Assembly (NCBI GenBank): GCA_044227095.1
Contig: JBGAFV010000001.1
Location: forward strand, 1,625,127-1,689,126
DNA from: Chitinophagaceae bacterium
GTDB taxonomy: Bacteria; Bacteroidota; Bacteroidia; Chitinophagales; Chitinophagaceae
Reading direction: 5' to 3'
Length of the DNA: 64,000 nucleotides
A program made the translations under genes and the position numbers. The notes under the pieces are model-generated. The model did not search any database. It was not told the origin of the DNA and was given only the letters and a program-made list of their open reading frames with translations. Positions 1,368-35,637 of this stretch are shown one piece after another; within the stretch, counting starts at the first letter, position 1, and each line of letters opens with the position of its first letter.

Positions 1368-1559
1368 TTACCCTCTACCTTTTTTCTTCCCTTTCATTAA
1401 TTCAGTTCTTTTTGGCTCAGGTACATTTTCATAATTATACGGACAATGCCTGCAACCATTACCACAGCAATAACCTTTGGAAAGATGATATTTTTCTGTA
1501 AATACCATCAGCCCGTTTTCGTAGTAAAAATCAATGCCATGTTTCAGCTCCGGTTTCAT
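1368..1559 (-). CDS. small cysteine-rich protein (DUF5522-like)
   Basis: 63-aa product with CCGNGCRHCPY motif. It overlaps the 3' end of trmB by 29 nt. Confidence 0.45.
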   Translation of the reverse strand: MKPELKHGIDFYYENGLMVFTEKYHLSKGYCCGNGCRHCPYNYENVPEPKRTELMKGKKKGRG

Positions 1560-2250
1560 CTTCTTTTAATTGCTCTTGTAATGATTTGTCAATATCAGGA
1601 AGTGGCGTTTCAGGAAGCTTGAATTTTAAGTAATGAATACGGCTGCTTTGCGCAATATCAAGACTTTCATAATAAGTTTTTATCTGCAATTCTGGCGAAA
1701 GATCTATTTGTGCATAAAGGTTGTTGTAATCTTCTGCTACTTCAAGCTTGTACAAAGCAATCACAAGTTTTGTAAAATTGTATAAAACCGGTGAATCTGT
1801 TTTTAAATGAATAAAACCATTGGGTTGTATGATTTGTTGATAAAGCCGCAAAAATTTTGGATGCGTCAATCTTTTTTTTGCTTTTGAAATGCGCAATTGC
1901 GGATCGGGAAATGTAATCCAGATATCTTCTACTTCAGCTTTTTTAAAATAATCTGTTACTTTATCAATATGGGAACGAACAAAAGCAGCGTTGCCTAAAC
2001 CCTCTGCCTGGCATTTTTTGGCACCGGTATAAATGCGATTGCCTTTCAAATCTATACCTATAAAATTCCTTTGCGTGTACATCCTGGCAAGGCCAACCGT
2101 ATATTCTCCCTTGCCGCACGCAAGTTCCAGCGTAACGGGATTATTATTTTTAAAAAAGTTATGCCACTGCCCCTGCATGTTTGCGGGGTACTCCAGCACA
2201 TTTGCAAATCCCTTAATTGCCTCAAAACGAATGAGTTTTTTATGTCCCAT
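1531..2250 (-). CDS. trmB: tRNA (guanine46-N7)-methyltransferase
   Basis: LELACGKGEYTVGLA...IGIDLKGNRI...ITFPDPQ are TrmB SAM-MTase motifs. The start was chosen at internal MGHKK (ATG rc at 2250), and the longer N-terminal extension is unlikely. Confidence 0.8.
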   Translation of the reverse strand: MGHKKLIRFEAIKGFANVLEYPANMQGQWHNFFKNNNPVTLELACGKGEYTVGLARMYTQRNFIGIDLKGNRIYTGAKKCQAEGLGNAAFVRSHIDKVTDYFKKAEVEDIWITFPDPQLRISKAKKRLTHPKFLRLYQQIIQPNGFIHLKTDSPVLYNFTKLVIALYKLEVAEDYNNLYAQIDLSPELQIKTYYESLDIAQSSRIHYLKFKLPETPLPDIDKSLQEQLKEDETGAETWH

Positions 2251-2404
2251 AAGCATGCAAATGTAAAACCCGGAAGCGGTAGGGCGAATTTTTATAGCAA
2301 AAGAATTGTTGCTGTTCGGCATTAACAAGCCAATACGTATTGGTTACAAATAAAATGAGGGGAAATACGTTTAAACTCTGGTAACATGAATTATTCCAAT
2401 ATCC

Positions 2405-4865: not shown

Positions 4866-4991
4866 CTTTATAACAAGGCAAAGGTAATCCTGCTTGTATA
4901 ATGGCTATAACACCATTTATTGGTTTTATGGTGTTTTTTACTGATCTGCGCTATTGCATATTATATAATTAAACAAGAATAAAGATGTCTT

Positions 4992-5028
4992 AAAAAAAGA
5001 AAACCCATTACATCATGTAATGGGTTTT
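4992..5028 (-). terminator. intrinsic terminator of the minus-strand ncRNA
   Basis: Perfect 14-bp hairpin AAAACCCATTACAT/ATGTAATGGGTTTT, followed on the minus strand by TTTTCTTTTTTT. Confidence 0.6.
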
Positions 5029-5032
5029 TAAA

Positions 5033-5190
5033 GCTGTAGGGGGAGGAGTCGAACCTCCACGGGGCAGTTAGCTATAGCACAAAGTTGAGTGGTCGACCCT
5101 GGTCGAACGAGTATCGCTACCCATTCGGCTCTATGCTACGTTTATCCTGTGACCCCCACCCCCGAGACAAGAGGGCATGTCTGCCAAAGA
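5033..5190 (-). ncRNA. unassigned structured small RNA (~150 nt) with tRNA-like T-arm at its 3' end
   Basis: The 3' end has GGAGG-TTCGACT-CCTCC (canonical T-loop). The 5' region TGTCTCGGGGGTGGGGGTC can pair with the 3' GACTCCTCCCCCTACA. An intrinsic terminator follows immediately, and an AT-rich promoter region lies upstream at 5195-5340. Confidence 0.4.
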
Positions 5191-5343
5191 TTTCATCACC
5201 CCACAGTATTTAAGAACGTTGGAGTGCAATATTAAAGAAAATACCCAATACGTTGAAAATATTTTAAACATTTTTTCAAAAAATTAGATATTTTATACGT
5301 TTTTTGCGTAAATTGTAGAATAATCTTAAAAATCAAACTAAAA

Positions 5344-5817
5344 ATGGGAACAAAATTAAATCTTGACAAACTGGACCTGCAAATCATCCAGGAAATGATG
5401 GAAAATGCAGGCATATCCTATGCAGATTTGGGGAAAAAGCTCTTTGTTTCAGGGGGAACTATACATGTCCGCATCAAAAAACTGCAGGATGTTGGTATAG
5501 TTAAAGGTACGAAACTCAATGTGGATATTAAGCAATTGGGTTATGATGTTATCGCTTTTATTGGAATTTATCTCGAAAAAAGCTCCTTATACGATTTTGT
5601 GGCAAAGGAATTGCGTAATATACCCCAAATTGTAAGGCTTAATTACACCACGGGCAATTACAGCATGTTTGCTGAAATTGTTTGCAAAGACATCAACCAG
5701 CTACGTTTTGTACTGCACGATGAACTGCAAAAAATAAAAGGCATAGAAAGAACAGAAACCTTTATTTCCCTGGAAGAAAGTTTTGTGCGCAATGTGCATG
5801 TGTACGATGAAAAATAA
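5344..5817 (+). CDS. Lrp/AsnC-family transcriptional regulator
   Basis: N-terminal HTH LDKLDLQIIQEMMENAGISYADLGKKLFVSGGTIHVRIKKL, plus a C-terminal RAM domain. Confidence 0.85.
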   Translation: MGTKLNLDKLDLQIIQEMMENAGISYADLGKKLFVSGGTIHVRIKKLQDVGIVKGTKLNVDIKQLGYDVIAFIGIYLEKSSLYDFVAKELRNIPQIVRLNYTTGNYSMFAEIVCKDINQLRFVLHDELQKIKGIERTETFISLEESFVRNVHVYDEK

Positions 5818-29821: not shown

Positions 29822-31267
29822 TTATTCACCTTCCACTGCATTTTTTTCTTTCTTCCATGATCTGTGTTTGGCGCCATCCATCTTTACAATTTTTGGCGTA
29901 AACCTTCCTACAATGTCTACCAAGGATTTCTGAGATTGCATTACTACTTCAATATCCTTGTACGCAAAAGGCGATTCGTCTAATCCGCCACCAAGCAGTT
30001 TTACACCAAACTTTTTCAGTTCGTCTTTAAACTGTTTATCTGTTACAGATGCAATGGCACGTGTACGGCTCATTTTTCTTCCTGCACCATGCGATGCAGA
30101 ATTTACAGATGCAGCCTCTCCTTTACCTTTTACAATAAAACCATCTGCCGTCATAGAACCAGGTATAATACCTAATACATCTTTGCCTGCAGGTGTAGCA
30201 CCTTTACGATGAACAATCACATCACGCCCTTCCCATTTTTCTTTCCACGCAAAGTTGTGGTGGTTTTCTACCATCTTCATTGCTTTACGCCCTAATTGTT
30301 TGGCTATCTTGGCATGTATTACATGATGACATGCAGAAGCGTAATCACCCGCAAGGTTCATCGCATTCCAGTATTCTATACCTTCTTCTTCATCTAAACT
30401 TAACCATGCAAGGTTTTTTGCTTCTTGTGGTAAACGTCTTTTGCTAATAGCCAACTTTGTATAGTGGTTAGCAATGTTTGCACCCAATGCCCTGGAACCA
30501 GAATGCGTTAGAAAACCAACATACTTTCCTGCACTAATACCAAGCATTGCATCTTTTTCTGCCACTTCAATAATACCAAACTCAGCAAAGTGGTTACCAG
30601 AACCAGAAGAACCCAATTGTTTCCATACACGGCCATGCATTTTCTTAAGCAATGGCAATTGGTAAAACAGTTCATTGTCCATCACTTCATGATCAGCTGC
30701 TCTATCAAACTGCGCACCGCTTCCAAATAATGTGGCTTCACTTAATTCTCTCGCAAAAAATGCTTCCTTGTCTGTAAGATCTTTTGGGTTGATATCAAAA
30801 ATACTTAAACACATTCTGCAACCAATATCCACGCCTACTCCATAAGGAATAACCGAGTTCTCTGTCGCCAGCACTCCACCTATCGGTAATCCATAGCCGC
30901 TGTGGGCGTCTGGCATTAATGCACCGGCTATACTCACGGGAAGTTTTGCTGCCTGGTACATCTGGTGCATAGCGCCTTCTTCAATATGTTCCTGCCCAAA
31001 TACATTAAACTGTATACCGTTTTGGTTCAGCGATATTTCTGCACCCTCTGTTGCAGCCTTAGGTATTAATTGCTGCGCAATCAAACCCAGCACAGCATCA
31101 TTTTCATATTCTACCGGCGCAGCCAGTATTTTTTTTAATAGTTCCATCACTTCTTCTTTTCCACTGTGTTTATAATTCTTTTCCATCACATTCATAGCAA
31201 TGCTTACTACCGGTCCTTCCGGGAAGCCAATTGCCCTGATTTCTTTTCCTGATATTTTTAGTTTCAT
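29822..31267 (-). CDS. rtcB: RNA-splicing ligase RtcB (3'-phosphate/5'-OH RNA ligase)
   Basis: Full-length 481 aa. Metal and GTP-binding motifs PDAHSGYG, GSGNHF, NHHNFAW, SHGAGR and the catalytic His region are present. Confidence 0.9.
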   Translation of the reverse strand: MKLKISGKEIRAIGFPEGPVVSIAMNVMEKNYKHSGKEEVMELLKKILAAPVEYENDAVLGLIAQQLIPKAATEGAEISLNQNGIQFNVFGQEHIEEGAMHQMYQAAKLPVSIAGALMPDAHSGYGLPIGGVLATENSVIPYGVGVDIGCRMCLSIFDINPKDLTDKEAFFARELSEATLFGSGAQFDRAADHEVMDNELFYQLPLLKKMHGRVWKQLGSSGSGNHFAEFGIIEVAEKDAMLGISAGKYVGFLTHSGSRALGANIANHYTKLAISKRRLPQEAKNLAWLSLDEEEGIEYWNAMNLAGDYASACHHVIHAKIAKQLGRKAMKMVENHHNFAWKEKWEGRDVIVHRKGATPAGKDVLGIIPGSMTADGFIVKGKGEAASVNSASHGAGRKMSRTRAIASVTDKQFKDELKKFGVKLLGGGLDESPFAYKDIEVVMQSQKSLVDIVGRFTPKIVKMDGAKHRSWKKEKNAVEGE

Positions 31268-31410
31268 ACCCCAACCCCTAAAGGGGCTATTTAAGTTTTA
31301 ATAATATTTTTTTTGATACCAGCATTTGTTTTCATGGCGGCATCGTTGTGTCACTCACTTGTATAGTAAATCAATTATCAACGCAGACACTTAAATTAAT
31401 AATCATTTTT

Positions 31411-31447
31411 ATTAACATCCGGCATCCTGTTAATGCCGGATGTTAAT
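31411..31447 (-). promoter_or_regulatory. 14-bp perfect inverted repeat immediately after the SPFH stop codon, upstream of rtcB
   Basis: ATTAACATCCGGCAT-cctgtta-ATGCCGGATGTTAAT. It is not followed by a clean U-tract, so it may be an attenuator or processing/regulatory hairpin between the SPFH gene and rtcB. Confidence 0.4.
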
Positions 31448-32554
31448 TTAACCATTCTTATTTGCCGGTACAAAGATCTGCTTCAACTGTTCTACCAAAG
31501 CACCGTTGCCACTTACACTGATATTACTGATTTTATCTGCAATCTTCTCTACGTATTCCATCTCTTTCAATTTCCACAACATCGCATTTTCTTCCATCAA
31601 TTTAGCAGTGTTTAGCAAACTACGGGTGCTGGCTGTTTCTTCACGGCGCATGATTGTATTTGCCTGCGCTTTCTTTTCTGCAATCAATACCTGGTTCATA
31701 ATCTCTTTCACATCGCCCGGCAAAATAATATCGCGTATACCAAAGCCGGTTACTTCCACACCCAATGCTGCAGCTTCGGCTTTTGCCCGCTGCAATATAT
31801 AAGGTGCGATGGTTTCTTTTTTTTCCAGCAATTCATCAAAGCTGAAACCGGCAATGTATTCACGCAAAGCCAATTGAAAGGCTACATACAATTGCTTGTC
31901 ATAGTCTTTGTTTTGCAACAAAGCTTTTTCAATGTCAGCCACTTTGTATTGCGCCCATGCATTAATACGCAAAGCCGCTTTGTCTTTGGTCAGGATTTCC
32001 TGGCCGTTTACTTCCAGTTGCTGCTGACGGATATCAACTTTGCCTACATGAATAGCGATGCTGTTCTTCCACCATGTATAAATGCCACTTTGCAAGGTTT
32101 GCACATACTTACCGTCTACAAACAATAGTGCTTTTTCATAACTCTCTACACTATAAGTACGCACATAGCCAATTACAGGCCGGCTCAACAAAACAGTGCG
32201 ATCAATGTTTTCAGTGATCTCAATCTTACTGATGTCTGCATGTACAAATTGGTAGTCAATCATTCCCTTCCAATATGTATAACGGCCGGCATTCAATACT
32301 AGCTTCAGCAAACCATTTTCGTATTGCAAAACAATTTCATTGTCTTTTACATCCACTACATGCAATGCATCAGCCAGCATAGTATCTTGCAAAAGAATAT
32401 TCAGTTCTATAGGAGCAACAAATGGTTTATTCAAGTCATAAACGATGGCTGTTTCATTCCACAACCAGTATTTACCTTCTTTCAGCATTCGCTGATAAGT
32501 TCCATTCTTAAACACCAAACCAACCTGGTAGGCATTTACTTTTACCTGTTTCAT
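31448..32554 (-). CDS. SPFH/band-7 (slipin/prohibitin-like) domain protein
   Basis: Band-7 core ...GFGIRDIILPGDVKEIMNQVLIAEKKAQANTIMRREE... plus an N-terminal extension. The start is at MKQVKV. Confidence 0.7.
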   Translation of the reverse strand: MKQVKVNAYQVGLVFKNGTYQRMLKEGKYWLWNETAIVYDLNKPFVAPIELNILLQDTMLADALHVVDVKDNEIVLQYENGLLKLVLNAGRYTYWKGMIDYQFVHADISKIEITENIDRTVLLSRPVIGYVRTYSVESYEKALLFVDGKYVQTLQSGIYTWWKNSIAIHVGKVDIRQQQLEVNGQEILTKDKAALRINAWAQYKVADIEKALLQNKDYDKQLYVAFQLALREYIAGFSFDELLEKKETIAPYILQRAKAEAAALGVEVTGFGIRDIILPGDVKEIMNQVLIAEKKAQANTIMRREETASTRSLLNTAKLMEENAMLWKLKEMEYVEKIADKISNISVSGNGALVEQLKQIFVPANKNG

Positions 32555-32937
32555 TTTCTTATATTTAAAGTTTTCAATTATTTGTAAAAAAGTCAGCACT
32601 GCCTGCACTCCGTAATCACGGAAGCGGGTTTTAGAAAATGTTTTTTGTAACAGTTTACCAGGGAGTGTTCGCCTGATAAAGTGAAACGAGCTGCATTCCT
32701 GCTGCCAGCCTGCAGATGCTTACTGAGTTGCACACTTCCAAAACTTTCCCTGTCAAAAAAGGTACTCGTTCTTTCAAGTCTTTCTTGCTGCATTGATGCA
32801 GCAAAAAAGAGTCATAGGCCGTGTGCCCGCAGGCAGCACCAACTTTTTTTATCTGGTCACCTTTTTTAAGAAGCGGTGGACTTCTCCTTTTGAAGCATTA
32901 TCAGTGCTTTGCTAGACCATTTAGCTTCACCGCCAAA

Positions 32938-33052
32938 GGCGATGACAGGATTCGAACCTGCATATTTCTGTTGCTCTACCACTGAGCTATTCCGTTTGCA
33001 ACGGAAAGAGGAATTGAACCCCTGACCCACAGGTTATGGAGGGCATTGCACC
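32938..33052 (-). ncRNA. candidate tRNA-mimic ncRNA (YrlA/Y-RNA-like tRNA-like module) upstream of the SPFH-rtcB genes
   Basis: The minus strand reads ...AGGGG-TTCAATT-CCTCT (T-arm) TTCCGTT-GCA-AACGGAA (acceptor-like 7-bp stem closed by a 3-nt loop) TA-GCTC-AGTGGTAGA-GAGC (D-arm with G18G19)... The ends GGTGCAATG / CATCGCC can pair. There is no anticodon arm. A second T-arm-like hairpin CAGG-TTCGAAT-CCTG lies near the 3' end. Confidence 0.45.
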
Positions 33053-33230
33053 ATTGAAATAACAGCATACAGAAAGTTTACTAACTCTGCACTATGGTGT
33101 TTTTGAAACACACATCCGGTTTACTGTCAACAGGCAGTTGCCCTTCTTGCCGTTAAGCAAGCTTTTGTGTTGAACTAGTCAACAATTTATTTATCTAAAG
33201 AATTTTCGGAGCATTGTATTATGGAAGAAG

Positions 33231-33962
33231 TTAATCATCCAGCCTATCCAAAATCTGCGGTAGCGGAATATTGTACAATGGATTTCTTTCCCTGTCTCTT
33301 TGTTCCCTGTAGCGCCATTTGTAACTATCACCTAAAATTTTAGCCTGACGTGCGTCATACTTATTCCATTCAAGGTAATTGCTAATTTCTTCGAGGCGTT
33401 TTTCAATGTCCACATCTTTTATCTTGATTTTATCAATTATGTTTGGACTTACACGCAATACAAAACGCCAGGGCTCATTAAAGACATATCTTTTAACCGG
33501 TTGCTTTTTCCAGTCATGCTCCCAAACCTCATGAAAACATTGCATTTCGCTATCAGAAAAGGCAAACCTTTTAAGCTCATATGAATATGGCTTTAGCAAC
33601 TGCTGCCCTTTAATAACATAGATCTTCCTTCCATACTTTCTTTTCCTGATGCGGAAGTCTTTTCTGTAACTCCAGGCGCTGGTATTTATTTTTTTCAAAA
33701 TAGCCTCAAAGAACTCTGCCTGTTTGCTTCTTGCTACGTCATCACGTAAAACAAAACAACGTTTCCATCCTTTTTGTACAGGTGGCAATAAGGGTTCCCA
33801 ACCTAAATTATTTTTTCTTGCCCACAACCCACGTTGTTCTTTCCATAATTGAATCAACTGTTTATCAAAATCTTTATACTGCATTCTTTTTTTCTGCCTG
33901 GCAGTACGCAGGCGGTAGCAGAGAATATCTTCTCCGTGCTGTTGAATAAGTTTTGTGTCCAT
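33231..33962 (-). CDS. hypothetical basic protein (243 aa, R/K-rich), no recognisable domain
   Basis: Clean ORF and ATG start. Its 5' UTR contains a D-arm-like hairpin GGTGCAATGGCACC (33990-34010). Confidence 0.5.
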   Translation of the reverse strand: MDTKLIQQHGEDILCYRLRTARQKKRMQYKDFDKQLIQLWKEQRGLWARKNNLGWEPLLPPVQKGWKRCFVLRDDVARSKQAEFFEAILKKINTSAWSYRKDFRIRKRKYGRKIYVIKGQQLLKPYSYELKRFAFSDSEMQCFHEVWEHDWKKQPVKRYVFNEPWRFVLRVSPNIIDKIKIKDVDIEKRLEEISNYLEWNKYDARQAKILGDSYKWRYREQRDRERNPLYNIPLPQILDRLDD

Positions 33963-34102
33963 AATGATTTATTTGGTTTCGATCGGTAACTCCGGTGCCA
34001 TTGCACCATTCCTTTCCGTATTGTCATTATGAACCCTGAAGTTTTTTTCATTTCGCTAAGGTTATTTTAATAAATTATTTTTAATCTTTCAGAAAGCTCG
34101 TT

Positions 34103-34588
34103 TCACTGCACCACTTTATTAGCACAGCTAGAACTTGCAAATGCTTCTGGCTTGGCTTTAAAAGCAAAACCCATCCCCATTATATAACCCATCGCTTCTT
34201 TCAAAGCATCATTGCTTTTAAAATTTGGATTGGTGTTGATATCGGCATGTACTTCCATTTCTACATCATATAAAGTGAATAGCCTGCACAATTCATAGGC
34301 AATGTCAATACTCTTCGATACTTCCAGCAACATCCTTTGCTTTATGCTCATCTTCTGTTGCGTAACTTCATTGCTGATATACATGAAACCACCTTTTCCT
34401 TTTCTTATAAAAACAATTACGGTTGCAAATTCTGTTTCCCGCCCTTTAACCTGGCTATCGGTACCAATACATACTTTCAAATCATTGCCCAATTGTTTTT
34501 CACGAACAATAGCCGAACGCACTTCATCAACAATAGATTGCTGCAACCTTTGTCCGTTCAGTTTTCTCCATTTTTGTTGCTGTTCCAT
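34103..34588 (-). CDS. YkuK/DUF458-family RNase H-like protein
   Basis: IGTDSQVKGRETEFATVIVF...NTNPNFKSNDAL resembles the DUF458 predicted RNase-H-fold nuclease. The start is at MEQQQKW, and the longer upstream extension overlaps tRNA-Phe. Confidence 0.5.
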   Translation of the reverse strand: MEQQQKWRKLNGQRLQQSIVDEVRSAIVREKQLGNDLKVCIGTDSQVKGRETEFATVIVFIRKGKGGFMYISNEVTQQKMSIKQRMLLEVSKSIDIAYELCRLFTLYDVEMEVHADINTNPNFKSNDALKEAMGYIMGMGFAFKAKPEAFASSSCANKVVQ

Positions 34589-34604
34589 TGTTTTGTTTTT
34601 AATG

Positions 34605-34679
34605 TGGTGCCTTAAGGAATCGAACCTTAATTGCTGGTTCTTCAAACCAGTGCAATAGAACCATCTCTGCCAAAGCACC
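34605..34679 (-). tRNA. tRNA-Phe (GAA)
   Basis: Manual fold: acceptor GGTGCTT/AGGCACC, D-arm GCAG...TTGC, anticodon stem CTGGT/ACCAG with loop TTGAAGA, T-arm TAAGG-TTCGATT-CCTTA, discriminator A. Confidence 0.7.
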
Positions 34680-34684
34680 ATTTT

Positions 34685-34776
34685 GTCTGAACCAGGATTT
34701 TGAAGGATTTTTTGGATTAATAGGATGTACACTTCTCTGCTAAATCTTTTAAATCATTTTAAATCCTGGTTTAGAT
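34685..34776. repeat. ~95-bp palindromic unit immediately 5' of tRNA-Phe (family also at 35110-35204, 35465-35637, 13040-13080)
   Basis: Terminal inverted repeats GTCTGAACCAGGATTTTGAAGGATTT ... AAATCCTGGTTTAGAT. Confidence 0.6.
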
Positions 34777-34876
34777 TTTTTTTGTTATTAACTGTAGTAA
34801 CACTATTAAGCATCGTTGCGTCGCACACTTCAGCTTTTTGTTATTTATTCATCATATCTCCCAATATAGTCTTCTT

Positions 34877-34948
34877 GCGGATGAAGAAAGGTTCGAACTT
34901 TCAACCTGGGGCTTAACAAGCCACTGCTCTGCCATTGAGCTATTCATC
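34877..34948 (-). tRNA. tRNA-Asn (GTT)
   Basis: Manual fold: acceptor GGATGAA/TTCATCC, D-arm GCTC-AATGGCA-GAGC, anticodon loop TTGTTAA (one mismatch in the anticodon stem), T-arm GAAAG-TTCGAAC-CTTTC, discriminator G. Confidence 0.6.
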
Positions 34949-34951
34949 CAT

Positions 34952-35025
34952 GAGTCGCGCAGAAGATTCGAACTTCTTTATTCCGGTTTGCAGCCGGATG
35001 CATACAGCCATGTCTGCCAGCGCGA
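34952..35025 (-). tRNA. tRNA-Cys (GCA), unusual D-arm
   Basis: Acceptor GTCGCGC/GCGCGAC, anticodon stem TCCGG/CCGGA with loop CTGCAAA, T-arm AGAAG-TTCGAAT-CTTCT, discriminator T. The D-region is 21 nt with a non-canonical stem. Confidence 0.55.
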
Positions 35026-35033
35026 CTTTTATT

Positions 35034-35109
35034 GTTGGCCCGGTGAGACTCGAACTCACAACTCCCGGTGTAAAAGACCGGTACTCTGCATCCAATTGAG
35101 TTACGAACC
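35034..35109 (-). tRNA. tRNA-Lys (TTT)
   Basis: Acceptor TGGTTCG/CGGGCCA (two G-U pairs), D-arm ACTC...GAGT, anticodon stem CCGGT/ACCGG with loop CTTTTAC, T-arm GTGAG-TTCGAGT-CTCAC, discriminator A. Confidence 0.65.
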
Positions 35110-35204
35110 AGTGTCTGAACCAGGATTTTGAAGGATTTTTCAGATTAATAAGATGTAAATTTTTCTGACGAATCTTTTTAATCCTTTTAAATCCTGGTTC
35201 AGAT
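35110..35204. repeat. ~95-bp palindromic unit immediately 5' of tRNA-Lys
   Basis: GTGTCTGAACCAGGATTTTGAAGGATTT ... AAATCCTGGTTCAGAT. It is ~85% identical to the 34685-34776 unit. Confidence 0.6.
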
Positions 35205-35211
35205 ATTTTTT

Positions 35212-35306
35212 GTACGACTTTCAGAATCGAACTGAATACGCCAAACTTATGTTTACCTCTCAGAAAGAGCAGGAAGCTTAGCATGTTGCCATTACACCCA
35301 GCCGTA
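35212..35306 (-). ncRNA. 95-nt tRNA-like element with canonical acceptor, D-arm and T-arm but no anticodon stem-loop (tRNA pseudogene or tRNA-mimic RNA)
   Basis: Acceptor TACGGCT/AGTCGTA, D-arm GTGT-AATGGCA-ACAT, T-arm TTCAG-TTCGATT-CTGAA. The 46-nt internal segment contains no 5-bp/7-nt-loop anticodon arm in any register (checked manually). Confidence 0.4.
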
Positions 35307-35309
35307 TTG

Positions 35310-35381
35310 GTTGACTTCGGGACTTGAACCCTGTTCTTCACATTCACAGTGTGACACTTTACCAGTTAAGCTAAAGCCAAC
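35310..35381 (-). tRNA. tRNA-His (GTG)-like, with G-1:C73 and irregular T-arm
   Basis: G-1 + TTGGCTT / AAGTCAA + C73 gives the 8-bp His-type acceptor. D-arm GCTT-AACTGGTA-AAGT, anticodon stem TCACA/TGTGA with loop CTGTGAA. The T-stem has only 3-4 bp (GGG-TTCAAGT-CCC). Confidence 0.5.
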
Positions 35382-35386
35382 GTTTG

Positions 35387-35459
35387 TTGTTAAGGATAGA
35401 TTCGAACTATCATCATCAGTGTCAAAGACTGATATGCTGAGCCATTGCACCACTTAACA
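35387..35459 (-). tRNA. tRNA-Gln (TTG)
   Basis: U1-A72 acceptor TGTTAAG/CTTAACA, D-arm GTGC-AATGGCTCA-GCAT, anticodon stem TCAGT/ACTGA with loop CTTTGAC, T-arm GATAG-TTCGAAT-CTATC. Confidence 0.7.
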
Positions 35460-35464
35460 ATTTG

Positions 35465-35637
35465 TCTTAACCACGATTCATAAGATTTATGGGATTGATA
35501 CGATATGTCTAACTAATCTTTTCAATCATTTTTAATCCCAGTTCAGACATTTTTCATATTTGGTTTAATGGTTCTGCACTCAATTTTTTTATTTAATCCT
35601 GACAATCCGTTTAATCTTACAAATCATGGTTCAGACA
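35465..35637. repeat. two degenerate copies of the tRNA-upstream palindromic unit, 5' of tRNA-Gln
   Basis: ...AATCTTTTCAATCATTTTTAATCCCAGTTCAGACATTTTT... and ...AATCCTGACAATCCGTTTAATCTTACAAATCATGGTTCAGACAATTTT. Confidence 0.45.

What the first reader, a model, noticed from the sequence alone, without database searches (positions are those of the whole stretch)
5033..5190. Unassigned ~150-nt structured RNA with tRNA-like T-arm 3' end and its own intrinsic terminator
A minus-strand stretch between the AraC and Lrp genes ends in GGAGG-TTCGACT-CCTCC + CCCTACAGC. A perfect 14-bp hairpin and U-tract terminator (4992-5028) follows, and a ~140-bp AT-rich putative promoter region precedes it. The 5' segment TGTCTCGGGGGTGGGGGTC is complementary to the 3' end, giving a closed, 6S-like or tRNA-like end-to-end helix. 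It is too short for tmRNA and has no SRP or RNase P motifs.
Basis: seen in the sequence. Interest (0 to 1): 0.55.

Follow-up and report, generated by a model that had tools for sequence, protein, structure and literature searches.

The report
Giant-armed aspartate-type tRNA-like RNA gene
This is a real, conserved 172-nt RNA gene: a complete tRNA cloverleaf with a 97-nt structured domain in its variable arm, found in many soil and freshwater Bacteroidota and their phages, which looks like an aspartate-accepting tRNA kept out of normal translation and paired with an asparagine-sensing regulator gene.

Summary
It runs 5205→5034 on the minus strand (172 nt). It is a full class-II tRNA cloverleaf with a 97-nt variable arm, its own promoter box and its own terminator.

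Rfam and ARAGORN miss it. I collected 290 distinct relatives (about 80-230 nt) from Chitinophagaceae, Saprospiraceae, Pedobacter and phages. Covariation supports every helix.

**What never changes**
- U1:A72, G2:C71, G73 and C74.
- Anticodon-loop bases G34 U35 C36 U37 C38.
- G49:C65, and A51:U63 or U:A.

**What this implies (inferred, not tested)**
- These bases include the five strong published aspartate identity determinants.
- U1:A72 is the published recognition pair for the amidotransferase GatCAB.
- G49:C65 and A51:U63 are the T-stem pairs that make EF-Tu reject Asp-tRNAAsn.
- U37 is atypical for a decoding tRNA.
- Ordinary tRNA-Asp genes sit beside it in several phage contigs.

**Neighbour**
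- In 123 of 155 bacterial loci an AsnC-type regulator gene lies divergently about 150 bp upstream.

**Best reading:** a non-elongator, aspartate-accepting tRNA-like RNA tied to asparagine/aspartate metabolism, possibly a scaffold for making asparagine. Its function is untested. I found no prior description.

The parts
5034..5205 (-). The RNA gene, tRNA positions 1-73 (172 nt). C74 is encoded at 5033; CA is not encoded.
   Evidence: Covariance model R1 scores it 141 bits, E=2e-35, over the full model.
5199..5205 (-). Acceptor stem, 5' strand UGUGGGG. It pairs with 5035-5041.
   Evidence: All 7 pairs are kept in 60/60 sequences, and pairs 4-7 covary. U1:A72 occurs in 150/152 sequences found without constraining the acceptor.
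5177..5196 (-). D arm: a 3-bp stem AUG/CAU and a 14-nt loop with G18 G19 (GGCAG). This is the class-II, tRNA-Leu-like type.
   Evidence: Pairs 10:25 and 11:24 covary: AU/GC/CG and UA/CG.
5159..5175 (-). Anticodon arm CCCUC-UUGUCUC-GGGGG: G34 U35 C36 (Asp anticodon), U37, C38.
   Evidence: The stem covaries. GUCUC is kept in scans that did not specify the loop.
5061..5157 (-). Variable arm domain (97 nt). It contains helix V1 (5154-5157/5061-5064), helix V2 (5147-5149/5065-5067), a conserved internal loop GAUAAAC/AGCUAA, helix V3 (5129-5139/5074-5084), a variable hairpin V4 (5104-5127) and a conserved hairpin V5, AGGG-UCGA-CCaCU (5088-5100).
   Evidence: V1, V2, V3 and the closing pair of V5 all show compensatory changes. 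The motifs GAUAAA, GGGUYGACCAC and CUAA are nearly invariant.
5042..5058 (-). T arm GGAGG-UUCGACU-CCUCC, with G49:C65 and A51:U63.
   Evidence: Across 290 sequences, 49:65 is G:C in 287. 51:63 is A:U in 266 and U:A in 17, and never G:C. 50:64 covaries freely.
5035..5041 (-). Acceptor stem, 3' strand CCCUACA. The discriminator G73 is at 5034.
5000..5028 (-). Intrinsic terminator hairpin (13 bp, 3-nt loop), followed by a T run at 4990-4999.
   Evidence: A terminator-like site follows the gene in 62/105 bacterial loci, against 9/297 random control segments.
5227..5234 (-). Candidate Bacteroidota-type -7 promoter box TAATATTG (consensus TAnnTTTG), 29 nt upstream of U1.
   Evidence: An exact TAnnTTTG occurs within 90 nt upstream in 62/105 loci, most often at -30/-29. 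Only consensus and position are conserved; this was not tested.
5252..5269 (.). Near-palindrome GTTTAAAATATTTTCAAC in the shared spacer, a candidate operator for the AsnC-type regulator.
   Evidence: Read from the sequence. Similar AAATATTT-rich motifs recur in the spacers of relatives. This is a weak inference only.
5344..5817 (+). Divergent AsnC-type transcriptional regulator gene (157 aa).
   Evidence: NCBIfam AsnC model NF008384 scores 157.7 bits and the next family 63.8. E. coli AsnC structure 2cg4 matches at E=2.6e-32, 40% identity over 145 ungapped residues. JGI names its homologues 'regulator for asnA, asnC and gidA'. It lies divergently upstream of the RNA in 123/155 bacterial or metagenome loci.

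Best explanation
The locus encodes a specialised tRNA-derived RNA. The steps below are marked as shown or inferred.

1. **Transcription (sequence-level evidence).** It is made as its own unit. A Bacteroidota-type promoter sits in the 138-bp spacer shared with a divergent AsnC-type regulator gene, and an intrinsic terminator lies 5 nt after C74.
2. **Processing (inferred).** It is matured like a tRNA: RNase P cuts at U1, and the 3' end is trimmed to C74 and completed to CCA.
3. **Fold (shown by covariation).** It is a class-II tRNA cloverleaf whose variable arm has grown into a 97-nt domain of conserved helices and loops.
4. **Charging (inferred).** The invariant G73, G2:C71, G34-U35-C36 and C38 are the published identity set of aspartyl-tRNA synthetase. 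I infer it is charged with aspartate.
5. **Exclusion from decoding (inferred).** G49:C65 and A51:U63 are the pairs that make EF-Tu reject aspartylated tRNAAsn, and U37 replaces the usual purine. As Asp-RNA it probably does not act as an elongator tRNA.
6. **Link to asparagine (most speculative).** U1:A72 is the determinant of the amidotransferase GatCAB. The conserved partner gene is AsnC-like, and in E. coli AsnC switches on asparagine synthetase A when asparagine is low. The most specific mechanism consistent with all this is that aspartate carried on the RNA is converted to asparagine, or is otherwise used or sensed, under AsnC control.

Phages of these bacteria carry their own versions, often with shorter arms.
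For: **A real gene family**
- I collected 290 distinct relatives. Four scans used different parts of the molecule as bait: T arm plus acceptor, D loop plus anticodon arm, T loop plus acceptor end and variable-arm motifs.
- Each scan recovered the same architecture.

**Structure**
- 91.3% of cells pair, against 79.8% in shuffles.
- 31 of 42 pairs show changes on both sides.
- The covariation score is 0.399, against 0.173 in shuffles (0/500 reach it) and 0.09-0.13 in slid controls.
- RNAalifold independently returns the cloverleaf plus variable-arm helices V1-V3; V5 rests on the pair counts.

**Independent transcription unit**
- A -7 box is conserved near -30.
- A terminator follows in 62/105 loci, against 3% of controls.

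**tRNA-type ends**
- Position -1 is a pyrimidine in 84% of sequences and C74 is present in 150/152.
- The six ordinary tRNA genes in the window also encode C74 but not CA.

**Identity set**
- Published Asp determinants are G73, G34, U35, C36 and C38, plus G2:C71. U1-A72 is the amidotransferase determinant (PMC9976931).

**EF-Tu**
- G49-C65 and A51-U63 prevent binding of aspartylated tRNAAsn (PMC1904265).
- An A:U pair at 51-63 costs about +1.1 kcal/mol (PMC3239215).

**Not simply the tRNA-Asp**
- Canonical tRNA-Asp genes lie in the same phage or metagenome contigs as the long RNA: L220, L243, L250, L255, L305 and L308. They have G1:C72, A37 and G51:C63.

**AsnC link**
- The regulator is specifically AsnC-like.
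- It is divergent in 123 of 123 cases, with a median gap of 148 bp. The pairing holds even where the regulator is only 38-56% identical to the window's, and while other neighbours differ.
- E. coli AsnC activates asnA, and asparagine abolishes the activation (PMC4482635).

**GatCAB is present**
- Chitinophaga, Niastella, Haliscomenobacter and Pedobacter keep gatCAB although they have both asnS and glnS.
- None of them has asnA, and P. heparinus also lacks asnB.
- The listed Flavobacteriales and Bacteroidales lack gatCAB (PMC4206432 Table S1).
Against: - Nothing here shows a transcript, aminoacylation or amidation.
- The D loop is large and has extra nucleotides at 20a/20b. An extra D-loop base (U20a) is a published anti-determinant for the amidotransferase.
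- Position 10 is A rather than the Asp determinant G10 in most bacterial members. G1:C72, reported as crucial in bacterial tRNA-Asp, is replaced by U1:A72.
- A class II synthetase approaches from the variable-arm side (my own recollection, not checked here), so a 97-nt arm could clash with AspRS.
- If asparagine were made on this RNA, it would then fit EF-Tu and could misread Asp codons unless U37 or the big arm blocks decoding. A release step would also be needed, and none is known.
- C. pinensis and relatives already have a tRNAAsn with U1-A72, so the ordinary indirect pathway may explain their gatCAB.
- Saprospiraceae-type loci lack the AsnC neighbour. Cytophagales with gatCAB, asnS and glnS did not appear among the 120 listed genome hits.
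- The weak-type T stem could be inherited from a tRNA-Tyr/Leu-like ancestor rather than selected for exclusion.
- Why phages would carry such an RNA is not explained.
Confidence: 0.42

Rival explanations
1. It is an elongator tRNA-Asp isoacceptor used in translation. It might be a back-up copy whose altered anticodon loop and bulky arm make it resistant to tRNA-cleaving toxins or defence nucleases. Hosts and phages would then both benefit from carrying it.
For: - ARAGORN calls the shortest phage members tRNA-Asp(gtc), and one reaches the Rfam tRNA threshold.
- Phage copies lie in tRNA arrays.
- Two canonical-length phage tRNA-Asp genes also have U37, so U37 may be tolerated in decoding.
- All tertiary tRNA features are kept: U8, A14, G18 G19, the T loop and A15-U48.
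Against: - Pyrimidine 37 is nearly invariant, and position 33 is not always U.
- The T stem is of the type that EF-Tu rejects when the amino acid is Asp.
- U1:A72 replaces the G1:C72 of bacterial tRNA-Asp.
- Canonical tRNA-Asp coexists in the same contigs.
- Arms of up to about 130 nt and D-loop insertions are hard to fit in the ribosome.
- The conserved AsnC partner is not explained.
Confidence: 0.15
2. It is a non-proteinogenic aminoacyl carrier. It is charged with aspartate and donates it to a process outside translation, such as the cell envelope, a lipid or a natural product. The Staphylococcus tRNA-Gly used for peptidoglycan is the model. No amidation is involved.
For: - It has the same Asp identity set and weak EF-Tu T stem as above.
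- Published work treats weak-binding outlier tRNAs that coexist with a normal copy as candidate donors outside translation (PMC3239215).
- A canonical tRNA-Asp coexists with it.
Against: - No transferase gene (Fem-type, DUF2156, LanB-like and so on) is a conserved neighbour. The only conserved partner is AsnC.
- Phage carriage is unexplained.
- The invariance of U1:A72 is not required by this model.
Confidence: 0.15
3. It is a tRNA mimic that is never charged. It would work as a regulatory or scaffold RNA that binds a protein through the invariant GUCUC loop, the acceptor end and the variable-arm domain. Possible roles are titrating AspRS/GatCAB, acting as a decoy for an anticodon nuclease, or sensing a metabolite with the arm domain.
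For: - The variable arm holds near-invariant loops (GAUAAA/CUAA, GGGUYGACCAC) of the kind typical of protein- or ligand-binding sites.
- Some phage members repeat the UUGUCUC/AUCUCAG motif in a hairpin inserted in the D loop, which suggests a loop-binding factor.
- Position 33 is variable while 34-38 are fixed.
Against: - Members with an ordinary short variable arm keep the same invariants, so the core function does not need the arm domain.
- The invariant discriminator, first three acceptor pairs and encoded C74 point to use of the 3' end.
- No partner protein is encoded nearby.
Confidence: 0.2
4. It is a decaying tRNA gene, a phage attachment-site relic, or a tRNA gene interrupted by an inserted element. 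It has no function of its own.
For: - Two phage contigs carry only the 3' part of the gene, as attachment sites do (L441, L483).
- One locus has a degenerate extra copy (L160).
Against: - There are hundreds of intact copies with compensatory changes in every helix, including inside the 'insert'.
- Promoter, terminator and gene neighbour are conserved across two bacterial orders.
- The sequence invariants are strict.
Confidence: 0.02

Closest known systems
Class II tRNAs (bacterial tRNA-Leu, tRNA-Ser, tRNA-Tyr)
   Same: - Cloverleaf with a 3-bp D stem, a long D loop with G18 G19, and A15-U48.
- A helical variable arm that starts right after position 44.
- The D arm sequence UGGUGAAAUUGGCAGACACG is close to E. 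coli tRNA-Leu, and the T arm GAAGGUUCGAAUCCUUC is the same as E. coli tRNA-Tyr. Both comparisons are from memory of those sequences.
   Different: - The variable arm is 40-130 nt in most members, against about 13-21 nt. It has internal loops and a junction.
- The anticodon is GUC (Asp), a class I tRNA specificity.
- It has U37, U1:A72 and G73.
tRNAAsn of the indirect (ND-AspRS + GatCAB) pathway, and more generally tRNAs on which an amino acid is made (tRNAGln, tRNASec)
   Same: - U1:A72, G73, G49:C65 and A51:U63. This is the acceptor/T-arm signature that lets GatCAB act and makes EF-Tu reject the Asp-charged form.
- Like tRNASec, it has a long variable arm and a weak EF-Tu body.
   Different: - The anticodon is GUC, not GUU, so a discriminating AspRS could charge it.
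- It has U37.
- The D loop is large, with extra 20a/20b nucleotides.
- The variable arm is giant.
- The gene is paired with AsnC.
Non-proteinogenic tRNA-Gly of Staphylococcus (peptidoglycan donor)
   Same: - A tRNA with the normal synthetase identity but T-stem pairs that weaken EF-Tu binding.
- It coexists with a canonical isoacceptor.
   Different: - That tRNA is normal in size and belongs to a different amino acid system.
- Its partner transferases are known. No transferase is linked here.
tmRNA (SsrA)
   Same: - A tRNA-like acceptor and T arm joined to a large functional domain.
- It is aminoacylated.
- Phages also carry it.
   Different: - tmRNA lacks an anticodon arm and carries its domain there. 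It has a G3·U70 alanine identity and a tag reading frame.
- This RNA keeps a complete anticodon arm and has no conserved reading frame, because hairpin lengths vary out of frame.
- ARAGORN and Rfam give no tmRNA match.
allo-tRNAs and other non-canonical tRNAs found in metagenomes (PMC5389517)
   Same: tRNA variants with long variable arms and unexpected anticodons, found by sequence mining and partly phage-associated.
   Different: - allo-tRNAs have 8/4 or 9/3 acceptor/T-stem geometry and serine identity.
- This family has the normal 7/5 geometry, the Asp identity set and a far larger arm.

Membership tests
tRNA (Rfam RF00005 / ARAGORN definition) | Four-arm cloverleaf with a 7-bp acceptor stem, a 5-bp T stem, a UUCRA T loop and G18 G19 in the D loop | tested here: met
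   Covariation supports all four arms. The T loop is UUCGA or UUCAA in 290/290 sequences.
tRNA (Rfam RF00005 / ARAGORN definition) | Score at or above the RF00005 gathering threshold (29 bits), or a call by ARAGORN | tested here: not met
   The window copy has no RF00005 hit even at E<=10 and no ARAGORN call. Only the shortest phage relatives are called: L013, L036 and L021 by ARAGORN, and L021 at 39.9 bits by Rfam.
tRNA (Rfam RF00005 / ARAGORN definition) | Canonical 7-nt anticodon loop with U33 and a purine at position 37 | tested here: not met
   The loop has 7 nt and the window copy has U33. Position 37 is U (rarely C or A) throughout the family, and position 33 is C, A or G in some members.
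Elongator tRNA-Asp | Asp identity determinants G73, G34, U35, C36 and C38 | tested here: met
   All are invariant or nearly so. The determinants are listed in PMC9976931.
Elongator tRNA-Asp | G1:C72 and a tight EF-Tu T stem (G49·U65 or A:U at 49-65, and G51:C63) | tested here: not met
   The family has U1:A72, G49:C65 and A51:U63. The canonical tRNA-Asp genes in the same contigs do have G1:C72, and most have G51:C63.
tRNAAsn of the transamidation pathway | U1:A72, G73 and the weak T stem G49:C65 / A51:U63 | tested here: met
   with the literature.
tRNAAsn of the transamidation pathway | Anticodon GUU and a small D loop without extra 20a nucleotides | tested here: not met
   The anticodon is GUC in all but 3 of 297 loci that carry the RNA. 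The D loop has 14 nt, with extra bases after G19.
tRNAAsn of the transamidation pathway | Substrate of GatCAB | not testable with these tools
   This needs biochemistry. Per published tables, gatCAB is present in the host genera.
tmRNA | tRNA-like domain without an anticodon arm, a G3·U70 pair, a tag reading frame, pseudoknots | tested here: not met
   ARAGORN and Rfam give nothing. Pair 3:70 is U:A. A complete anticodon arm is present, and no reading frame is conserved.
6S RNA | A long, largely double-stranded rod with a central bubble; a match to the 6S or 6S-Flavo models | tested here: not met
   Rfam gives no match at E<=10. The conserved structure is a branched cloverleaf.
Bacterial Y RNA (YrlA) | The 5'/3' ends form a Ro-binding stem with an internal tRNA-like module; the gene lies next to rsr | tested here: not met
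   The ends form a tRNA acceptor stem. No Rfam match was found. No TROVE/rsr gene is among the conserved neighbours.
Non-proteinogenic (non-elongator) tRNAs, a functional class | Normal synthetase identity, a T stem predicted to bind EF-Tu weakly, and coexistence with a canonical isoacceptor | tested here: met
   This is a sequence-level prediction only.
Non-proteinogenic (non-elongator) tRNAs, a functional class | Demonstrated aminoacylation and use outside ribosomal elongation | not testable with these tools
   This needs experiments.

The most novel reading that the evidence does not exclude
This RNA is a dedicated, non-decoding tRNA scaffold for making asparagine. A normal, discriminating aspartyl-tRNA synthetase charges it, because it keeps the GUC anticodon. 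GatCAB then converts the aspartate to asparagine, because it keeps U1:A72. U37 and the giant arm keep it off the ribosome. The asparagine sensor AsnC controls its gene, which sits where asnA sits in E. coli. This would be the first tRNA-dependent amino-acid synthesis uncoupled from decoding. It would also explain why bacteria that have both AsnRS and GlnRS keep GatCAB, and it would show that phages carry the RNA.
Probability: 0.2. Interest if true: 0.9.

Novelty: new variant of a known kind. Interest (0 to 1): 0.78.

Why it matters
- **Gene finders miss it.** tRNA finders and Rfam miss almost every member of this abundant family. Genome annotations of Chitinophagales, Sphingobacteriales and their phages therefore lack a conserved RNA gene.
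- **The molecule is unusual.** It combines the aspartate identity set with the acceptor and T-arm signature of transamidation-pathway tRNAAsn, and adds a structured expansion domain. This makes it a natural candidate for a tRNA working outside ordinary decoding.
- **It makes an open question testable.** Its tight pairing with an AsnC orthologue gives a direct hypothesis for why some Bacteroidota keep GatCAB although they have AsnRS and GlnRS, and how Pedobacter heparinus makes asparagine without asnA or asnB.
- **The arm is a new RNA module.** The conserved variable-arm domain has no assigned ligand or partner.

Tried and rejected
**Searches that found nothing**
- Rfam at gathering thresholds and at E<=10 gave nothing in 5034-5205. 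The only nearby hits were terminator look-alikes.
- ARAGORN gave nothing at the locus.
- BLASTN of the window copy and two phage copies against cultured-phage GenBank records gave no match.
- The single-sequence fold is not significant (z=-1.4 on the minus strand, -0.5 on the plus strand). The case rests on comparative data.
- Seven literature searches in all found no description of this RNA (four looked for one directly).

**Readings considered and dropped**
- A tmRNA-like reading frame. The window arm contains AUG...UAA, but hairpin lengths differ out of frame between relatives and the short forms read AUG GGU UGA. Dropped.
- A kink-turn at the GAUAAA/CUAA loop. The tandem G·A positions do not fit. 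A UAA/GAN-type loop is possible but untested.
- An 8-bp acceptor stem with N-1:G73. Position -1 is U or C in 84% but A in 15%. It is more simply the usual RNase P preference for a pyrimidine at -1.
- A C74 specific to this RNA. Rejected, because all six ordinary tRNA genes in the window also encode C74.
- A conserved protein partner other than AsnC. None was found in Saprospiraceae loci or in phages. The phage neighbours are the large terminase, the portal protein, an exonuclease and unknown small ORFs.
- gatCAB, aspS, asnS, asnA or asnB near the gene. Pfam scans of the larger ORFs of the window found none.

**Tests that could not be completed**
- Whether AsnC orthologues of asnA-bearing Bacteroidota sit next to asnA.
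- The AsnC structure paper (PMC1401507) is not held, so the asparagine-binding residues were not checked.
Full report
**1. What is in the sequence**

Read on the minus strand, the stretch 5205→5034 is a 172-nt tRNA cloverleaf.

| Element | Sequence | Window coordinates |
|---|---|---|
| Acceptor stem | UGUGGGG / CCCUACA | 5205-5199 / 5041-5035 |
| Positions 8-9 | U8 G9 | 5198-5197 |
| D arm | 3-bp stem AUG/CAU, 14-nt loop with GG | 5196-5177 |
| Anticodon arm | CCCUC-UUGUCUC-GGGGG | 5175-5159 |
| Variable arm | 97 nt | 5157-5061 |
| T arm | GGAGG-UUCGACU-CCUCC | 5058-5042 |
| Discriminator, C74 | G73, C74 | 5034, 5033 |

A 13-bp hairpin with a T run follows at 5028-4990.

Rfam finds nothing here even at E<=10. 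ARAGORN calls only six ordinary tRNAs elsewhere in the window. A single-sequence fold is not significant.

**2. Relatives**

The exact 25-mer of the T arm plus acceptor occurs in 7 IMG/VR phage contigs. These have the same cloverleaf but different variable arms. I then ran scans that each used a different part of the molecule as bait.

| Bait | Collection | Result |
|---|---|---|
| D loop + anticodon arm | viral contigs | 66 stretches |
| Variable-arm motifs only | viral contigs | 97 stretches |

- The genome hits are almost all Chitinophagaceae (Chitinophaga, Niabella, Niastella, Hanamia, Ferruginibacter, Sediminibacterium), Saprospiraceae/Lewinellaceae/Haliscomenobacter and Pedobacter.
- Together the scans give 290 distinct sequences of about 80-230 nt.
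- The shortest phage members have an ordinary class-II variable arm. ARAGORN calls them tRNA-Asp(gtc), and one reaches the Rfam tRNA threshold (L021, 39.9 bits).
- Cultured-phage GenBank records have no match.
- Some genomes have 2-3 tandem copies.

**3. Structure**

I aligned 60 sequences that are less than 82% identical to each other (A2).

| Measure | Proposed structure | Shuffled control | Slid controls |
|---|---|---|---|
| Cells forming a standard pair | 91.3% | 79.8% | 48-58% |
| Pairs with changes on both sides | 31 of 42 | 18.6 | 10-19 |
| Covariation score | 0.399 | 0.173 (0/500 reach it) | 0.09-0.13 |

RNAalifold independently predicts the four tRNA arms and variable-arm helices V1-V3, and it fixed the register of the first arm helix; hairpin V5 rests on the pair counts.

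The variable arm has these parts:
- Helix V1 (4 bp) and helix V2 (3 bp).
- A near-invariant asymmetric loop, GAUAAA opposite CUAA.
- Helix V3 (6-11 bp).
- A junction with an optional variable hairpin V4.
- A conserved hairpin V5, x-GGG-UYGA-CC(A)C-x', whose closing pair covaries (A:U, G:C, U:A).

Model R1, built from this alignment, scores the window copy 141 bits (E=2e-35). It finds no second copy in the window. The next hits are the ordinary tRNA-Asn (23.8 bits) and tRNA-Cys (21.9 bits).

**4. What never changes**

- In sequences found without constraining the acceptor: U1:A72 in 150/152, G73 in 150/152, C74 in 150/152, and position -1 is U or C in 84%.
- In scans that did not constrain the anticodon loop, positions 34-38 are GUCUC almost always. 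GUCCC is rare, and GUU and AUC each occur in one lineage. Position 33 is usually U but can be C, A or G.
- In the T stem, 49:65 is G:C in 287/290. 51:63 is A:U in 266 and U:A in 17, and never G:C. 50:64 changes freely with compensation.
- All six ordinary tRNA genes in the window also encode C74 without CA. The 3' end therefore looks like that of a normal tRNA gene in this organism.

**5. Reading the invariants against published biochemistry**

- The review of tRNA identity lists G73, G34, U35, C36 and C38 as the five strong, evolutionarily conserved aspartate determinants. G2:C71 and G10 also contribute in bacteria. The same review gives U1-A72 as the pair that lets the amidotransferase act on Asp-tRNAAsn, with G1-C72 and U20a of tRNAAsp as anti-determinants (PMC9976931).
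[quoted passage not shown] Aspartylated tRNAs need G49-U65 and G51-C63 (PMC1904265).
- Schrader and Uhlenbeck give about +1.1 kcal/mol for A:U at 51-63. They regard weak-binding tRNAs with a normal second copy as candidate amino-acid donors outside translation (PMC3239215).
- Six contigs (five phage, one metagenome) hold both the long RNA and a canonical tRNA-Asp with G1:C72 and loop CUGUCAC, most with G51:C63.

My inference, which is not a demonstration: the RNA is probably charged with aspartate, and as Asp-RNA it is not an elongator substrate.

**6. Transcription unit and neighbour**

- In bacterial loci a Bacteroidota-type -7 box (TAnnTTTG) sits most often 29-30 nt upstream of U1. The window has TAATATTG at 5234-5227.
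- A terminator-like site starts a median 7 nt after G73 in 62/105 loci, against 9/297 control segments. Phage copies mostly lack one (4/94).
- Upstream and divergent lies a 157-aa regulator gene (5344-5817).
  - Its best NCBIfam model is AsnC at 157.7 bits, below the 227-bit equivalog cut-off but far above the next family at 63.8.
  - Its best solved relative is E. coli AsnC: E=2.6e-32, 40% identity over 145 ungapped residues, against 70 bits for the next structure.
  - JGI names its homologues 'regulator for asnA, asnC and gidA'.
- Among loci with at least 750 bp upstream, 68/87 genome loci and 55/68 metagenome loci have this gene. It is divergent in all 123, with a median gap of 148 bp. Its identity to the window protein ranges from 38% to 97%. 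No phage locus has it.
- The other neighbours differ between Chitinophaga, Niabella, Pedobacter and others, so the pair travels as a unit. Saprospiraceae-type loci lack it.
- In E. coli, AsnC activates asnA and asparagine abolishes the activation (PMC4482635).

**7. Is the amidotransferase there?**

A published survey (PMC4206432 Table S1) lists gene counts per genome.

| Genome | asnA | asnB | gatCAB | asnS | glnS |
|---|---|---|---|---|---|
| Chitinophaga pinensis | 0 | 3 | 1 | 1 | 1 |
| Niastella koreensis | 0 | 1 | 1 | 1 | 1 |
| Haliscomenobacter hydrossis | 0 | 3 | 1 | 1 | 1 |
| Pedobacter heparinus | 0 | 0 | 1 | 1 | 1 |

- In these genomes GatCAB has no obligatory role in charging.
- The listed Flavobacteriales and Bacteroidales have no gatCAB.
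- This agrees with GatCAB acting on this RNA, but it does not prove it. The same table notes a U1-A72 tRNAAsn in these genomes, so the ordinary indirect pathway is an alternative explanation.

**8. Mechanism proposed, with its weak points**

- *Shown by sequence and comparison:* a conserved, independently transcribed, tRNA-shaped RNA with a structured arm domain and a fixed set of nucleotides at both ends of the L shape.
- *Inferred from published identity rules:* charging by AspRS and rejection of the Asp form by EF-Tu.
- *Speculative:* amidation to asparagine by GatCAB under AsnC control, or another asparagine/aspartate-linked use.
- *Against the speculative step:*
  - The D loop is large and has extra nucleotides, which is an anti-determinant for the amidotransferase.
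  - Most bacterial members have A10.
  - A release step for asparagine would be needed.
  - Asn-RNA would fit EF-Tu and might misread Asp codons.
  - Phage carriage is unexplained.
  - Saprospiraceae lack the AsnC partner.
- *Rivals:* a nuclease-resistant elongator tRNA-Asp, an aspartate donor for a non-ribosomal process, an uncharged tRNA mimic, and a relic (excluded by the covariation).

**9. Novelty**

Seven full-text searches and three papers read for background mention no such RNA (44, 47, 72). Rfam 15 has no model for it. It is best filed as a new variant of a known kind: a non-canonical tRNA related in concept to tRNAAsn/tRNASec, the Staphylococcus cell-wall tRNA-Gly and tmRNA. It is not a member of any of these by their defining features.

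Noticed in passing
window 35212-35306 (-): A 95-nt tRNA-like stretch lies between tRNA-His and tRNA-Lys. It has a 7-bp acceptor stem (UACGGCU/AGUCGUA) and a T arm (UUCAG-UUCGAUU-CUGAA), but a long irregular central hairpin instead of a normal anticodon arm. ARAGORN and Rfam do not call it.
   Followed up: partly
window 29822-35554: The array of six tRNA genes (34604-35459, minus) is interspersed with ~100-nt palindromic elements at 34684-34785 and 35112-35213, with a partial copy at 35508-35554. It lies a few kb from an RtcB RNA ligase gene (29822-31267, minus) and an SPFH/Band 7 gene (31448-32608, minus). This may be a tRNA repair or back-up island.
   Followed up: partly
L441 and L483 (phage contigs), around the variable-arm motif match: These contigs carry only the 3' part of the RNA gene, from the 3' strand of the anticodon stem to the end, joined to unrelated upstream sequence. 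This looks like a phage attachment-site fragment, so the gene may be an integration target.
   Followed up: no
L070 and L150 (Pedobacter), spacer between asnC and the long RNA copy; L160: Pedobacter has two tandem copies downstream of asnC: a ~110-nt copy with a short arm lacking the GGGUYGACCAC hairpin, then the ~145-nt copy. L160 has a degenerate extra copy upstream of the intact one.
   Followed up: no
L193, L198, L203, L218, L219, L230, L242, L261, L263 and others (phage contigs): Many phage members have a hairpin inserted in the D loop. In several it repeats the anticodon-loop motif (UUGUCUC or AUCUCAG), giving two such loops on one RNA.
   Followed up: no
L015 1781-1854; L207 1811-1886: Two canonical-length phage tRNA-Asp genes also have U at position 37 (loop CUGUCUA). 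A pyrimidine at 37 next to GUC therefore recurs in these phages outside the long family.
   Followed up: no
window 1531-2328 (-): A TrmB gene (tRNA m7G46 methyltransferase, which acts on the variable region) lies on the same strand downstream. In 22 related loci it follows the RNA gene directly; in the window AraC and DUF983 genes lie between them.
   Followed up: partly
phage loci such as L005, L007, L038, L198: In one phage lineage, about half of the viral loci, the RNA always sits between a 170-aa ORF of unknown function and a ~80-aa ORF, just upstream of the large terminase and portal genes.
   Followed up: partly
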